DNA from: Escherichia phage JSE
Strand: one strand, 5' to 3'
Sequence record: EU863408
Length of the DNA stretch: 64,000 nucleotides
The notes under the pieces: model-generated
Databases searched by the model: none
Seen by the model: only the letters and a program-made list of their open reading frames with translations
Told to the model about the DNA's origin: nothing
In this document: in pieces, positions 18,492 through 23,268 of the stretch
Layout of the letters: every line of letters begins with the position of its first letter
How positions within the stretch are numbered: position 1 is the stretch's first letter
Program-made: the position numbers and the translations under genes

Positions 18492-19088
18492 TTATTTGGT
18501 AGTACCGTCAATAAAATGTTTACGACACACAGAAACATATTTATCCTCTGCACCAACTTCTATTTGAGCACCATCGCGAATAACATTACCCTCTTTATCT
18601 ACACGAAGGACCATTGTTGCTTTCTTGCCACAATGACAAATACCCTTCATTTCGACCAGTTTATCAGCAAATGCCATTAATGCCGCAGATCCTTCAAATA
18701 GATTGCCCTGAAAGTCAGTGCGAAGGCCATAGCACAGTACAGGGATATTAGCATCATCAACAAGCGCACACAAGCCTAAAACATGCTCTTTAGTCATAAA
18801 TTGGGCTTCATCTACAAATACAGCATCAGGACGCCAGCGATCCGGTCTACGCTTACCTAACGATTCACGATAAACCAAATCGAAAAGATCATCCGATTTA
18901 GTGAAGGTGATCGCTGGGGCACTTAGGCCAATTCGGGAAACGACTTCACTTTCTGAATCTCGATTATCAATCGCTGGCTTAAGAATTAATACTCGCATAT
19001 CACGTTCTGTATAGTTATAAGCACTTTGTAACAGAGAAGTTGATTTGCCAGCGTTCATAGATGCATAGTAGAAATATAATTGCGCCAT
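18492..19088 (-). CDS. tk: Thymidine kinase
   Basis: P-loop MNAGKST, C-terminal CHCGKKA...CRKHF zinc motif; 198 aa as in T4 Tk. Confidence 0.9.
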   Translation of the reverse strand: MAQLYFYYASMNAGKSTSLLQSAYNYTERDMRVLILKPAIDNRDSESEVVSRIGLSAPAITFTKSDDLFDLVYRESLGKRRPDRWRPDAVFVDEAQFMTKEHVLGLCALVDDANIPVLCYGLRTDFQGNLFEGSAALMAFADKLVEMKGICHCGKKATMVLRVDKEGNVIRDGAQIEVGAEDKYVSVCRKHFIDGTTK

Positions 19089-19381
19089 TAATTAATCTCC
19101 AAAAATCCAACAAGACCTAAACCGATATAAGTCCAGATACCAATAAAAAAGATGTTAATGCTCATGGCAAGGATAAACCCTTTCAGCGTTTTGGGATACC
19201 CGACCCAATATTCCCGACCATCTTCTAACCGGATCAGTTTATTGCCTTGAGAGTCCATATCAACTACAACATGTTTATTTCGAGATTGCAATAGATATTG
19301 TTTTACAATCTCTACACCCGCCATAATAACAATAACGAAAATAAAAGTCCACACAACAAGATTAATGATAGTCTCAAGCAT
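19088..19381 (-). CDS. Small membrane protein (97 aa)
   Basis: Two predicted TM segments; TAATG overlap with tk. Confidence 0.45.
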   Translation of the reverse strand: MLETIINLVVWTFIFVIVIMAGVEIVKQYLLQSRNKHVVVDMDSQGNKLIRLEDGREYWVGYPKTLKGFILAMSINIFFIGIWTYIGLGLVGFLEIN

Positions 19382-19616
19382 TTTCTATCACCTCCACCCA
19401 ATCAGGTGTTTCCTGAAAGACTCCTTCTCCTTCATGATGGTCGCAACCTTTATTGCTACAATACATCCACCAATCCCACATTCCCCACGGTAAACGCTGC
19501 ATATCGTCGTTACAGCAAGTGAAGATAATAGGCCAACCACATCTAACACATCGGCAGTTTTCTTTCATGTGAGCGGTATTCGGCTTCTTCATAGATGACT
19601 CCAATATAATCGACAT
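19374..19616 (-). CDS. Small Cys-rich (zinc-binding-like) protein (80 aa)
   Basis: CRCVRCGW...CCNDD...CSNKGCDHH. Confidence 0.4.
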   Translation of the reverse strand: MSIILESSMKKPNTAHMKENCRCVRCGWPIIFTCCNDDMQRLPWGMWDWWMYCSNKGCDHHEGEGVFQETPDWVEVIENA

Positions 19617-19819
19617 TTACATTTAGGGCAATGCGGTTCTTTAATATAATACCCGTCTGTCTTTGGAACACTAACAGGAGCGGTTTTTATATTGTATTCA
19701 GTGAAACAACGAAAACAAGTTACGTTTTCTACAGACTGACGTTTCACCCAATCACCGGAATATAGATCATTTTTATTTGTCATATTCAACCACCACAATG
19801 TTAATGTCTGGAGTAGCAA
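19589..19819 (-). CDS. Small zinc-ribbon-like protein (76 aa)
   Basis: CFRCF...CPKCKC. Confidence 0.4.
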   Translation of the reverse strand: MLLQTLTLWWLNMTNKNDLYSGDWVKRQSVENVTCFRCFTEYNIKTAPVSVPKTDGYYIKEPHCPKCKCRLYWSHL

Positions 19820-20228
19820 TATTAATGATCTCTTCTACACATTCCCACTCAAGGCCACCGATACCGCAACCGATTTTAGGAATATAGAAAGGCTGTATAG
19901 CACCTTCAAAAACATCATTGATAGTCTCAAATCCTTTCAGGATAGCACCATATTCAGCATTTGGACCCGGTCGGAATTGGGTATATAGATTCACCCCGCA
20001 CCAGTTATAACCATTAACTTGATGCGTCCAGACACTAAACCCACCCAGCTTTTCTACCTTACCGCGAGAAGTTTGCTTGTCAATCTCTAACGCTTGCGGG
20101 AACTCTTTCGCGATCTTTGCAGCAATACCAGCACCCATAGTATGAAAACAATTACAACCATGAATTAAATGACCGTTTCCTTGTTTAAACAGGGCGATGA
20201 GATCGCCCTTTACAGTATCAATAATCAT
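19773..20228 (-). CDS. Macro-domain protein (ADP-ribose binding/processing fold, 151 aa)
   Basis: GDLIAL...GHLIHGCNC...MGAGIAAKI and PKIGCGIGGL resemble macro-domain motifs; GAGAGG RBS. Confidence 0.65.
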   Translation of the reverse strand: MIIDTVKGDLIALFKQGNGHLIHGCNCFHTMGAGIAAKIAKEFPQALEIDKQTSRGKVEKLGGFSVWTHQVNGYNWCGVNLYTQFRPGPNAEYGAILKGFETINDVFEGAIQPFYIPKIGCGIGGLEWECVEEIINIATPDINIVVVEYDK

Positions 20229-20243
20229 AATATAAACCTCTCA

Positions 20244-20603
20244 TTAGTCACGGGAAGACAACCCAGCCATAAAACGGCTTAACAGTGTGTCGCGATAAGC
20301 AAAGCATAATTGCTTATCAGGGGCAGTATCACAAAGGTTGCGTTTTGTTTTAGCAAAGCTGGCAATACTCAGATCCCACGCTCGATTTTTTCGTTTTTCG
20401 TCTCGACCTTGTTTGTATGCTTCGTCGAGTTCAAGTGCGATAAAATCACTACACATGTTATCATCATCACAGAAAGTTTTAATGATCTTTTTGTTGATCT
20501 CAAATCCTTTGTATTCGAACTTTGGATAAGGGCGCTCATTACTAGCAAGCGCACCAGCCGAGAACATCATAGCAATCATAGCAATTATTGTCAACTTTTT
20601 CAT
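20244..20603 (-). CDS. Periplasmic protein with signal peptide (119 aa)
   Basis: MKKLTIIAMIAMMFSAGALA signal-like N-terminus. Confidence 0.45.
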   Translation of the reverse strand: MKKLTIIAMIAMMFSAGALASNERPYPKFEYKGFEINKKIIKTFCDDDNMCSDFIALELDEAYKQGRDEKRKNRAWDLSIASFAKTKRNLCDTAPDKQLCFAYRDTLLSRFMAGLSSRD

Positions 20604-21714: not shown

Positions 21715-22050
21715 TTATCCTTTCTTAAACAAATTGCGAATCCAGTATACAAACGGGATTTCTTTAAACTTGAATTTCTCTATAGTTAATTCTTTAGTAG
21801 CAAGATGAATACCATAAGCATCATGTGTAACTATATGCCATTTTCTATAGCCCAAATGTGAACAACCGTCTGGATCTAGGTTAATAAGAGTTTCTCGCTC
21901 ACTAGGATTATTTTTCCACAATTTTGTAATAGGATCGCACATAATTCGACCTAGCGTACCATGAATAATCTCACAACGGTAAAGTTTTCCAGCAGTGAGA
22001 TAGGCGCACCCGTCATAGTCGGTATAAACAAACACTTCTTTAACACTCAT
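21715..22050 (-). CDS. Paralog family B protein (DGCSHL motif, 111 aa)
   Basis: ATG 22050 after promoter cassette; DPDGCSHLGYRKWHI. Confidence 0.45.
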   Translation of the reverse strand: MSVKEVFVYTDYDGCAYLTAGKLYRCEIIHGTLGRIMCDPITKLWKNNPSERETLINLDPDGCSHLGYRKWHIVTHDAYGIHLATKELTIEKFKFKEIPFVYWIRNLFKKG

Positions 22051-22081
22051 TTTAATACTCCTTTGTTGTTTCGATGGGGGT

Positions 22082-22110
22082 ATATTACTACCCCCGATCA
22101 TGTGTGTCAA
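22082..22110 (-). promoter_or_regulatory. Early promoter cassette TTGACA-17-TAATAT inside GGGGGTA/TACCCCC palindrome
   Basis: Minus-strand read. Confidence 0.6.
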
Positions 22111-22372
22111 CTACTTTTTCAAGATTTTTTTTGATTGCATTCCAAAGACCTTTATTTCCAGGTTGTTTTGGTTCTTCGATCAGTGTCCATGTTCGACCGT
22201 CTAAGTGTGCACAATTTTTAAGGCAAATAAAAATCTGGTGTCCCTTATCAGCACGGATATAACCACTATTCGCAAATCTTTCATGTGGTGTATATTCATA
22301 CAGTGTATTAGGTGTAATATACTTGCGGTTACTATAAGGTGTCATCACATACATCATGGTACTAACTCCCAA
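22088..22372 (-). CDS. Paralog family B protein (94 aa)
   Basis: NCAHLDGRTWTL motif. Confidence 0.4.
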   Translation of the reverse strand: MGVSTMMYVMTPYSNRKYITPNTLYEYTPHERFANSGYIRADKGHQIFICLKNCAHLDGRTWTLIEEPKQPGNKGLWNAIKKNLEKVVDTHDRG

Positions 22373-22548
22373 CGATCACCGCGAAGATGAGAACATCCAC
22401 CATCAAGAAGTATCGTAATACGATAACCTATATCATCTTTGATGTAACCGATTGTCGGTGGATTTTCGTCGTCTCGTGCCGGGGTAAAATCATACATCTT
22501 TCCGGGCGTAATATCTTGTCCTTTATTGCTATTGGTATAAACTTGCAT
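22354..22548 (-). CDS. Paralog family B protein (64 aa)
   Basis: DGGCSHLRGDRWEL motif. Confidence 0.4.
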   Translation of the reverse strand: MQVYTNSNKGQDITPGKMYDFTPARDDENPPTIGYIKDDIGYRITILLDGGCSHLRGDRWELVP

Positions 22549-22569: not shown

Positions 22570-23268
22570 CTAACCACGGGTATAGTGTTCCAGAACAACG
22601 GTCAGATGAATATATTCTAATAGATCTTTCCAAAAGTCAACATCTGGTTCTTCCGGCATACCGTTTTTCTTTGCCTCTTCACGCGCGAGTTTAACACGCT
22701 CGTAGAGATCTTTCAATTCTTCCCGCACATTATCAAAGGTTCTTTCTCCTAACTTACACGCTAAAATAGAAGAACGTCGCGCGAGCGGGAATTGTAGATC
22801 ACCTGTCTGATAGATTTCAAGTAGCTGATAACCAACACGCAGAGCATGAGAAAGATCTTTCCAGTTACTGAAATACTTTTCAGATTTGGCTACCTGCTTT
22901 TTGAGATAGCCAGACAAACCCCACATACCAACATGATAGAATTTATCTCGATGTGTTCGGATGTATTCCCATTCTCTGGAGGATTCAACCAACATGTTAC
23001 TAGGCGCGTGCACCATATCAATAGCGCCGATATCGCCTTTACATGCCAGATTGATAAACCGTTTTAGACTGAACATATTAACGTCAATATCGTCTTTGGT
23101 GTTCTTGATCCCTTGACCGCTAGTGCTTTGATCATAGTGTTCTTTCATCGATCCTAAGATAATTTCTTTCGCAGTCGGAACAAAGATACCACGATAATCT
23201 TTATCGGAATTTTCAGTATCAAGGCCGTATAAGTGAGATCCGAAGACCATTTTAACCATTGTATGCAT
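22570..23268 (-). CDS. Pol-beta superfamily nucleotidyltransferase (232 aa) with C-terminal helical domain
   Basis: FGSHLYGLDTENSDKD matches GS-x10-DxD nucleotidyltransferase signature, third acidic DDIDV; GAGGGT RBS. Confidence 0.6.
   Translation of the reverse strand: MHTMVKMVFGSHLYGLDTENSDKDYRGIFVPTAKEIILGSMKEHYDQSTSGQGIKNTKDDIDVNMFSLKRFINLACKGDIGAIDMVHAPSNMLVESSREWEYIRTHRDKFYHVGMWGLSGYLKKQVAKSEKYFSNWKDLSHALRVGYQLLEIYQTGDLQFPLARRSSILACKLGERTFDNVREELKDLYERVKLAREEAKKNGMPEEPDVDFWKDLLEYIHLTVVLEHYTRG

What the first reader, a model, noticed from the sequence alone, without database searches (positions are those of the whole stretch)
19773..20228. Phage-encoded macro-domain protein between regB and tk
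Seen: the 151-aa protein has GDLIAL...GHLIHGCNC...MGAGIAAKI and PKIGCGIGGL segments that resemble the conserved NAAN/GGGV and G-x-G-x-G ADP-ribose-binding loops of macro domains. Established: macro domains bind or hydrolyse ADP-ribose derivatives (mono-ADP-ribosyl groups, O-acetyl-ADP-ribose, ADPR-1''-phosphate); several bacterial defences act through ADP-ribosylation or NAD-derived signals; T4-type phages themselves encode ADP-ribosyltransferases. Inference: a candidate eraser countering host ADP-ribosylation-based immunity or regulating phage ADP-ribosylation; I do not recall a macro-domain gene in T4 at this locus.
Basis: partly seen in the sequence, partly recalled or inferred. Interest (0 to 1): 0.6.

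Follow-up and report, generated by a model that had tools for sequence, protein, structure and literature searches.

The report
Krischvirus copy of T4 tk.4/adfM macrodomain
This gene is the RB49-type phage's copy of the T4 gene tk.4 (recently renamed adfM), a small macrodomain enzyme that most likely strips ADP-ribose off phage DNA to defeat the bacterial DarTG2 defence. It is real, but the gene family and its function are already described.

Summary

The window is a Krischvirus (RB49-like) genome. The gene is the positional and sequence orthologue of T4 tk.4: 44% identity over the full length, in the same vs | tk.4 | ... | tk slot.

A 2025 preprint showed that T4 tk.4 (renamed adfM) is required to resist DarTG2. 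PhiKZ AdfM removes DarT2-made ADP-ribose from DNA in vitro.

One nuance came out of this work. The Tk.4 family has an invariant Gln84 where DarG, TARG1 and PhiKZ AdfM have the catalytic lysine. This matches SCO6735, whose Gln85 is essential for cleaving thymidine-linked ADP-ribose. No biochemistry exists for any T4-type protein, including this one.

Verdict: already known; low interest.

The parts
19773..20228 (-). CDS of the 151-aa macrodomain protein, orthologue of T4 tk.4 / adfM. Key residues: H23, N26, M31-G32-A33-G34-I35-A36 (loop 1), N80-L-Y82-T83-Q84 (Gln at the DarG K80 / TARG1 K84 position), P117-K-I119-G120-C-G122-I-G-G125 (loop 2), W128.
   Evidence: ORF; Pfam Macro 28.7 bits vs GA 22; PHROG 335 E 1.1e-61; 44% id to T4 Tk.4, E 9e-45; family conservation; AF2 pLDDT 97.3; fold matches.
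20237..20242 (-). Shine-Dalgarno GAGAGG, 8 nt upstream of the ATG. It lies just after the vs stop codon (TAA at 20244-20246).
   Evidence: Read directly from the sequence.
19773..19783 (-). 11-nt overlap (ATGACAAATAA) between the end of this CDS and the ATG of the downstream Zn-binding gene (19589-19783). It indicates co-transcription and translational coupling.
   Evidence: Sequence. The PHROG/Pfam matches of the downstream protein begin at or after the internal Met, residue 13 of the listed ORF.
20244..20603 (-). Context: vs (valyl-tRNA synthetase modifier) homologue, immediately upstream, as in T4.
   Evidence: phrog_1256 E 1.8e-33; 27% id to T4 vs; T4 gene order.
18492..19088 (-). Context: thymidine kinase (tk), downstream anchor of the syntenic block.
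   Evidence: Pfam TK E 9.6e-52; 52.5% id to T4 tk.

Best explanation
The gene is the Krischvirus orthologue of T4 tk.4 (adfM, anti-DarT factor macrodomain). It is a standalone, early-region macrodomain ADP-ribosylglycohydrolase. When the host's DarTG2 system releases DarT2, the toxin ADP-ribosylates thymidines in single-stranded phage DNA and blocks replication. This protein binds the ADP-ribose moiety in its two glycine-rich loops and hydrolyses the thymidine-ribose bond, which restores a replicable template. In effect it is an orphan 'antitoxin' carried by the phage. Catalysis is probably of the SCO6735 (glutamine) type rather than the DarG/TARG1 (lysine) type. In that type, the invariant Gln84, with N26 and H23, positions the substrate and an activated water. 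What is shown here: macrodomain identity, fold, orthology and synteny with T4 tk.4, and the active-site constellation. What is shown by others: the phenotype of T4 tk.4 deletion on DarTG2; enzymology of SCO6735, DarG and PhiKZ AdfM. What is inferred: that this particular protein has the same substrate and phenotype.
For: 2. Orthology. The protein is 44% identical to T4 Tk.4 over the full length, E 9e-45. The flanking syntenic genes are 27-53% identical to their T4 counterparts. T4 has the same vs | tk.4 | ... | tk order. The RB49 record names the gene tk.4. There is no paralogue in the window.
3. DarG link. DarG is the only hit in PADLOC (50.8 bits) and in NCBIfam (antitoxin_DarG, 48.4 bits). 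Both matches cover only the macrodomain part of the model, and the window protein scores higher than T4 Tk.4 itself (36 and 30 bits).
4. Function of the orthologue. T4 tk.4 was the single HIDEN-SEQ hit on DarTG2 hosts, and a clean knockout sensitised T4 to DarTG2 (bioRxiv 10.1101/2025.11.20.689424). T4 lacking adfA and adfN stays DarTG2-resistant (PMC11825919).
5. Chemistry precedent. The family's invariant Q84 aligns with DarG K80 and TARG1 K84 and with SCO6735 Q85; H23 aligns with H24 and N26 with N27. SCO6735 cleaves dT-ADPr on DNA, Q85A and Q85E are inactive, and it protects against DarT (PMC9411070). PhiKZ AdfM removes DarT2-made ADP-ribose from DNA in vitro (PMC13309987).
Against: No experiment exists on this protein or on any Krischvirus allele. 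Identity to the tested T4 protein is only 44%. The T4 evidence is genetic only and comes from a preprint; hydrolysis by a T4-type Tk.4 has not been shown in vitro. The protein lacks the DarG/TARG1 catalytic lysine. It also lacks the SCO6735 features thought to help DNA binding: K34 is Ala33 here, and the K89/K93 loop insert is absent. By sequence and fold it is about equally close to DarG, TARG1, BT1257 and Poa1p, so substrate cannot be read from similarity alone. The allele is closer to rV5-like phage proteins (68%) than to T4 (43%), so specificity could differ.
Confidence: 0.75

Rival explanations
1. It is what current RefSeq/PHROG annotation calls it, a 'phosphatase'. On this reading it is a Poa1p-type enzyme acting on small ADP-ribose derivatives (ADP-ribose-1''-phosphate, O-acetyl-ADP-ribose) rather than on DNA.
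Against: The label is a legacy of the old domain name (A1pp) and comes from domain matches, not assays (PMC1524935). No source of ADP-ribose-1''-phosphate is known in T4-type infection (my knowledge: T4 Pnkp/Rnl repair leaves no 2'-phosphate). The family's invariant Q84 is Ser in Poa1p but Gln in the DNA-ADPr hydrolase SCO6735. The only phenotype known for the orthologue is DarTG2 sensitivity.
Confidence: 0.08
2. It protects mainly without catalysis, either by binding and inhibiting DarT2 directly or by binding ADP-ribosylated DNA.
For: Catalytically dead SCO6735 Q85A inhibits DarT in vitro more strongly than the DarG or TARG1 mutants do (PMC9411070). Other phage anti-DarT factors (AdfA, AdfB) act by binding the toxin (PMC11825919). 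The DarG-type catalytic lysine is absent.
Against: All ligand-binding and catalytic-position residues (H23, N26, Q84, both Gly loops) are invariant or nearly so across 47-65 diverse homologues, including orphan bacterial ones with no DarT nearby. That pattern points to selection on an active site rather than on a toxin-binding surface. The isolated DarG macrodomain K80A did not inhibit DarT (PMC5179494).
Confidence: 0.07
3. It removes ADP-ribose from proteins or RNA. It would either tune the phage's own ADP-ribosyltransferases (Alt/ModA/ModB type) or reverse host protein- or RNA-targeting ARTs.
For: TARG1 and SCO6735 also remove Glu/Asp-linked ADP-ribose from proteins.
Against: T4 Alt/Mod enzymes modify arginine, and TARG1/DarG-class macrodomains are not known to cleave that linkage (my knowledge, not tested here). 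T4, which carries tk.4, is still strongly restricted by the mRNA ADP-ribosyltransferase system CmdTAC (PMC11618068). tk.4 is dispensable for T4 on plain K-12, and its only conditional phenotype was on DarTG2.
Confidence: 0.05
4. It degrades or sequesters NAD-derived immune signals (Thoeris-type cyclic ADPR isomers or similar).
Against: There is no specific similarity to any known signal-binding or signal-degrading protein. The nearest neighbours are all macromolecular de-ADP-ribosylases or Poa1p. The orthologue's phenotype is on DarTG2.
Confidence: 0.03

Closest known systems
T4 Tk.4 = AdfM (NP_049723; bioRxiv 10.1101/2025.11.20.689424)
   Same: Same genomic slot (downstream of vs, upstream of tk). 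Same size (151 vs 155 aa). 44% identity over the full length. Same invariant H23/N26/T83-Q84/Gly-loop residues.
   Different: Sequence has diverged to the level typical of Krischvirus versus Tequatrovirus. The genes between it and tk differ: Zn-binding genes here, tk.1-tk.3 in T4. This allele is closer to rV5-like phage alleles, and it has not been tested experimentally.
SCO6735 of Streptomyces coelicolor (PDB 5E3B; PMC9411070)
   Same: Standalone macrodomain of about 150 aa in the TARG1/DarG class, with no DarT partner. Gln at the catalytic-lysine position (Q85 = Q84 here), with H24 = H23 and N27 = N26. It is a proven dT-ADPr DNA hydrolase.
   Different: About 23% identity. SCO6735 is basic (pI about 9.7 for the aligned part, versus 5.3 here). 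It has K34 and a longer Lys-bearing mobile loop (K89, K93) that the phage protein lacks. It is a bacterial housekeeping/stress gene, not a phage counter-defence gene.
DarG antitoxin macrodomain (PDB 5M3I, 5M31, 7OMU; NCBIfam NF048014)
   Different: No C-terminal DarT-binding domain, no adjacent darT, and a score far below the equivalog cut-off (48 vs 250 bits). The catalytic K80 is replaced by Gln.
PhiKZ gp104 AdfM (PMC13309987)
   Same: A phage-encoded standalone macrodomain that counters DarTG2, with the same published name. It is acidic like this protein (pI 5.05 vs 5.3).
   Different: PhiKZ AdfM keeps the DarG-type 'FPTK' lysine (translated from the sequence). It is only about 22% identical and is imported into a phage nucleus. 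It therefore belongs to a separate (Lys-type) lineage that shares the name.
Human TARG1/OARD1 (PDB 4J5R) and yeast Poa1p (PDB 6LFQ); B. thetaiotaomicron BT1257 (2FG1/2AFC)
   Different: The TARG1 K84/D125 dyad is absent (Q84 and G124/G125 here). Poa1p has Ser at the Q84 position and a long insertion. BT1257 has no known function.

Membership tests
Macro domain superfamily (Pfam PF01661) | Profile match above the curated gathering score over the whole domain | tested here: met
   28.7 bits vs GA 22, profile positions 1-118 of 118. Most homologues also carry a precomputed PF01661 hit.
Macro domain superfamily (Pfam PF01661) | Three-layer alpha/beta/alpha macro fold | tested here: met
Macro domain superfamily (Pfam PF01661) | Conserved Asn plus two glycine-rich ADP-ribose/phosphate-binding loops | tested here: met
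   N26, M31, G34, A36, G120 and G122 are invariant; G32 and G125 are at least 90% conserved in 47-65 homologues.
Macro domain superfamily (Pfam PF01661) | Actual ADP-ribose binding | not testable with these tools
   Needs ITC/DSF or a co-crystal structure.
T4 Tk.4 / AdfM orthologous group | Full-length homology to T4 Tk.4 | tested here: met
   44% identity, 65% positives over 153 columns, E 9e-45. No other copy in the window.
T4 Tk.4 / AdfM orthologous group | Conserved position downstream of vs and upstream of tk on the same strand | tested here: met
   Window order regB-vs.1-vs-X-...-tk-rI matches T4 order regB-vs.1-vs-tk.4-tk.3-tk.2-tk.1-tk-rI.1-rI. The RB49 record names the gene tk.4.
T4 Tk.4 / AdfM orthologous group | Required for plating on DarTG2-expressing hosts | not testable with these tools
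   Shown only for T4. Needs a Krischvirus deletion mutant.
DarG type II antitoxin (NCBIfam NF048014 equivalog; PADLOC DarG) | Score above the equivalog cut-off, i.e. full two-domain architecture with the C-terminal DarT-binding domain | tested here: not met
   48.4 bits vs cut-off 250. The match covers model positions 2-141 of 338 only; PADLOC covers 3-141 of 329. The protein ends at residue 151.
DarG type II antitoxin (NCBIfam NF048014 equivalog; PADLOC DarG) | Encoded next to a darT toxin gene | tested here: not met
   The neighbours are vs and a phage Zn-binding gene.
DarG type II antitoxin (NCBIfam NF048014 equivalog; PADLOC DarG) | Catalytic lysine (Taq DarG K80) | tested here: not met
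   The profile alignment puts the family's T83-Q84 on DarG 'PT-K'. The column is Q in 46 of 47 family members and K in 1. K80A inactivates DarG (PMC5179494).
SCO6735-type (Gln-type) thymidine-ADPr hydrolases | Gln at the position of the DarG/TARG1 catalytic Lys, plus the His24/Asn27 equivalents | tested here: met
   Window H23/N26/Q84 align with 5E3B chain H44/N47/Q105, which are native H24/N27/Q85 after the 20-residue tag. The numbering is cross-checked by K34, K89 and K93 (PMC9411070).
SCO6735-type (Gln-type) thymidine-ADPr hydrolases | Electropositive DNA-binding elements: K34 and the extended mobile loop with K89/K93 | tested here: not met
   K34 aligns with Ala33. The 5-residue 'GMKTG' insert is absent. 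Overall pI is 5.3 vs about 9.7.
SCO6735-type (Gln-type) thymidine-ADPr hydrolases | Hydrolysis of thymidine-linked ADP-ribose on ssDNA | not testable with these tools
   Needs an in vitro assay with DarT2-modified oligonucleotide.
TARG1/OARD1 | Catalytic Lys84/Asp125 dyad | tested here: not met
   K84 aligns with Q84. The 'GCGLDRLQW' D125 aligns with the G124/G125 region of 'GCGIGGLEW'.
Poa1p-type ADP-ribose-1''-phosphate phosphatase (source of the 'phosphatase' label) | Poa1p active-site residues probed by mutation (H23, S30) and overall similarity | tested here: inconclusive
   H23 is conserved and S30 corresponds to T30 (hhalign prob 98%; mutant names). But the family's invariant Q84 is Ser in Poa1p, and H23 is also shared with SCO6735, BT1257 and TARG1. 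Similarity alone therefore does not discriminate.

The most novel reading that the evidence does not exclude
The two kinds of phage protein now both called AdfM are mechanistically different lineages. PhiKZ-type proteins are DarG-like with a catalytic lysine. The T4/Krischvirus/rV5-type Tk.4 family is a Gln-type (SCO6735/BT1257-like) enzyme that is present in about 2,700 sequenced phages. The most novel reading still open is that the Gln-type family, or specifically the Krischvirus/rV5-like allele (68% to rV5-like, 43% to T4), has a different or broader substrate range than DarT2-modified thymidine. It might act on other nucleic-acid or protein ADP-ribose adducts made by as yet uncharacterised defence ARTs, or it might act partly by binding the toxin.
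Probability: 0.15. Interest if true: 0.5.

Novelty: already known. Interest (0 to 1): 0.2.

Why it matters
DarTG systems are common anti-phage defences, and knowing which phages carry counter-measures helps predict host range, for example in phage therapy cocktails. For this window the practical result is a better annotation. The gene should be called tk.4/adfM (anti-DarT2 macrodomain, putative DNA ADP-ribosylglycohydrolase) rather than 'hypothetical protein' or 'phosphatase'. The remaining scientific value is modest. The widespread T4-type family has Gln in place of the DarG lysine, and no member has been assayed in vitro, so its chemistry and substrate range remain an open, easily testable question.

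Tried and rejected
1. I first read the Lys-to-Gln replacement at the DarG K80 position as possible evidence for an inactive 'reader' or a different function. I rejected that as a strong argument after finding that SCO6735 has the same Gln, needs it for activity, and cleaves dT-ADPr.

2. MAFFT misaligned PhiKZ gp104 around the FPTK motif. I relied instead on HMM and profile alignments to DarG, TARG1 and SCO6735, which agree with each other and with published residue numbers.

3. I considered the acidic pI (5.3) as an argument against a DNA substrate. I rejected it because PhiKZ AdfM, which is active on ADPr-DNA, has pI 5.05.

4. I asked whether 44% identity to T4 meant non-orthologous replacement. 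The flanking syntenic genes are 27-53% identical, so the divergence is ordinary. The closer relation to rV5-like alleles is recorded as a side observation only.

5. I looked for a DarT neighbour of a bacterial family member (P0099, Pelagimonas). There is none; it is an orphan gene in a housekeeping context.

6. I looked for a second macrodomain in the window. There is none.

8. I did not use the large representative-protein search, metagenome scans or a second structure job, because they would not change the verdict.

Full report
**Observation.** It contains all the quoted segments. It has a GAGAGG ribosome-binding site 8 nt upstream (20237-20242), directly after the stop codon of the upstream gene. 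Its last 11 nt overlap the ATG of the downstream gene. It therefore looks like an expressed member of a tightly packed T4-type early/middle gene cluster.

**Identity of the window.** A 5-kb stretch around the gene is 98-98.6% identical to many Krischvirus (RB49-like) Escherichia phages. The protein is 100% identical to proteins in at least ten GenBank phage records and 98.7% identical to that of RB49. In the RB49 record the gene is named tk.4 ('Tk.4 conserved hypothetical protein', or 'phosphatase' in RefSeq). A few records call it 'macro domain protein'.

**Is it a macrodomain?** Yes.
- Pfam Macro (PF01661) matches end to end at 28.7 bits against a gathering score of 22.
- PHROG 335 ('phosphatase') matches at E 1.1e-61.
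- An AlphaFold2 model built on 65 homologues is very confident (pLDDT 97.3, pTM 0.91).
- Foldseek against the PDB returns TARG1 (TM 0.77-0.84), Poa1p and DarG first.

**Relation to T4.** The T4 RefSeq record has tk.4 (NP_049723, 155 aa, 'phosphatase; contains A1pp phosphatase motif') between vs and tk.3. The window protein is 44% identical and 65% similar to it over the full length (E 9e-45). The surrounding genes are in the same order and orientation: regB, the SLT-domain vs.1, vs, then tk, rI and rI.-1. They are 27-53% identical to their T4 counterparts, so 44% is ordinary orthologous divergence. The A1pp (macro) match of tk.4 orthologues in T4-like phages was already tabulated in 2006 (PMC1524935). 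Homologues occur in 2,730 of 50,697 phage records, across T4-like, rV5-like, Felix-O1-like, ViI-like, Pseudomonas, Vibrio and Acinetobacter phages.

**What is known about function.**
- A November 2025 preprint screened a T4 transposon library on E. coli expressing DarTG2. tk.4 was the single significant hit, and a clean knockout became sensitive to DarTG2. The authors renamed the gene adfM (anti-DarT factor macrodomain). They inferred, but did not show, enzymatic removal of ADP-ribose from DNA (bioRxiv 10.1101/2025.11.20.689424).
- This fits earlier work showing that T4 lacking adfA and adfN remains DarTG2-resistant (PMC11825919).
- Independently, a DarG-like macrodomain of PhiKZ (gp104, also named AdfM) removes DarT2-installed ADP-ribose from an oligonucleotide in vitro and rescues DarT2 toxicity (PMC13309987).
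- In defence-system and NCBI family libraries, the only hit for the window protein is DarG. The match covers only the macrodomain part of the model and scores higher than T4 Tk.4 itself.

**Active site.** This is where I looked hardest for something new. In 47-65 diverse homologues the invariant or near-invariant residues are H23, G24, N26, C27, M31, G32, G34, A36, N80, Y82, T83, Q84, G88, P117, I119, G120, G122, G125 and W128. Profile alignments to solved structures place T83-Q84 on the 'T-K' of DarG (NFPTKKHW) and TARG1 (LITKKRA). The catalytic lysine, whose K80A mutation inactivates DarG (PMC5179494), is therefore an invariant glutamine in the Tk.4 family (Q in 46 of 47). TARG1's D125 is also absent. 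PhiKZ AdfM, by contrast, keeps 'FPTK' (sequence).

This is not evidence of inactivity. SCO6735 of Streptomyces coelicolor is a standalone macrodomain of the same class with Gln85 at this position. It cleaves thymidine-linked ADP-ribose from DNA efficiently, is dead as Q85A or Q85E, and protects against DarT (PMC9411070). The window protein aligns to it as H23=H24, N26=N27 and Q84=Q85, and the published K34, K89 and K93 numbering confirms the register. The phage protein lacks SCO6735's K34 (Ala33 here) and its Lys-bearing loop insert, and it is acidic (pI 5.3). PhiKZ AdfM is equally acidic. BT1257 also has Gln at this position, whereas Poa1p has Ser.

**Most likely mechanism.** The protein is a phage-borne orphan 'antitoxin'. 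It binds ADP-ribose attached by DarT2 to thymidines in single-stranded phage DNA and hydrolyses the glycosidic bond, probably by the water-mediated, Gln-dependent mechanism proposed for SCO6735. This keeps replication going.
- Shown here: fold, orthology, synteny and active-site constellation.
- Shown by others: the T4 phenotype, and the enzymology of SCO6735, DarG and PhiKZ AdfM.
- Inferred: that this allele has the same substrate and phenotype.
- Confidence: about 0.75.

**Rivals.**
- The legacy 'phosphatase' reading (Poa1p-like action on small ADP-ribose derivatives) rests on a domain name, not on an assay.
- A purely stoichiometric inhibitor is conceivable, because dead SCO6735 inhibits DarT. 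It is disfavoured by strict conservation of catalytic-site residues, including in orphan bacterial homologues with no DarT nearby.
- Reversal of protein or RNA ADP-ribosylation is not supported. T4 carrying tk.4 is still restricted by the mRNA ADP-ribosyltransferase system CmdTAC, and T4's own ARTs make arginine linkages, which this macrodomain class is not known to cleave (my knowledge).
- A Thoeris-type signal-degrading role has no specific support.

**Novelty and verdict.** The gene, its macrodomain nature, its conservation in T4-like phages and the anti-DarTG2 role of its T4 orthologue are all already described, so the finding is 'already known'. The implied novelty, however, rested on a mistaken recollection. 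The residual open points are small but real. No T4-type Tk.4 has been assayed in vitro. The family uses Gln where DarG and PhiKZ AdfM use Lys, so two mechanistically distinct lineages now share the name AdfM. The Krischvirus allele is closer to rV5-like alleles (68%) than to T4's (43%). Interest: 0.2.

Noticed in passing
window 21715-22110, 22088-22372, 22354-22548 (all minus strand): Three tandem, partly overlapping small ORFs upstream of regB are paralogues of one another (B vs C 38% identity, E 4e-11; A vs C E 4e-4). They share a C(S/A)HL-x-G-x-x-W motif. None matches any Pfam family.
   Followed up: partly
window 19088-19783 (minus strand): 19589-19783, 19374-19616, 19088-19381: The segment between tk.4 and tk is not the T4 tk.1-tk.3 set. 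It holds two small phage zinc-binding-domain genes (PF23903, PF23895) and a 97-aa hydrophobic protein (phrog_16027). None has a BLASTP match (E<=1e-3) to T4 tk.1, tk.2 or tk.3. This is a plastic spot inside an otherwise syntenic block.
   Followed up: partly
window 19773-20228 vs rV5-like phages (e.g. P0006, Escherichia phage EduardKellenberger/Bas59; phage isim, H2): The Krischvirus tk.4 allele is 68-70% identical to the macrodomain of rV5-like (Vequintavirinae) coliphages but only 43% to T4's. T4 versus the rV5-like protein is 39%. This suggests allele exchange between Krischvirus and rV5-like phages.
   Followed up: partly
window 20566-20594 (minus strand): The best sigma-70-like promoter match in the region (TTGACA-17-TATGAT, 11 of 12, with an extended-10 TG) lies inside the first 40 nt of the vs coding sequence, about 340 nt upstream of tk.4. 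It could drive transcripts that skip the vs start. It is a consensus match only.
   Followed up: no
window 22570-23268 (minus strand): A 232-aa RlaP-family nucleotidyltransferase (PF10127, 54 bits), the family to which the T4 nrdC.11-type protein is assigned. Here it sits upstream of the regB cluster rather than beyond rI/mobD as in T4.
   Followed up: no
L002:6001-6459 (Pelagimonas phthalicica chromosome, protein P0099): A bacterial member of the same Gln-type macrodomain family (44% identity) is an orphan chromosomal gene among housekeeping genes. It has no DarT or other ART nearby, the same arrangement as SCO6735.
   Followed up: partly
Literature: PhiKZ gp104 vs T4 Tk.4: Two independent 2025-2026 papers gave the name AdfM to phage macrodomains that are only about 22% identical and differ at the key catalytic position: Lys in PhiKZ gp104, Gln in T4 Tk.4 and this protein.
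   Followed up: yes
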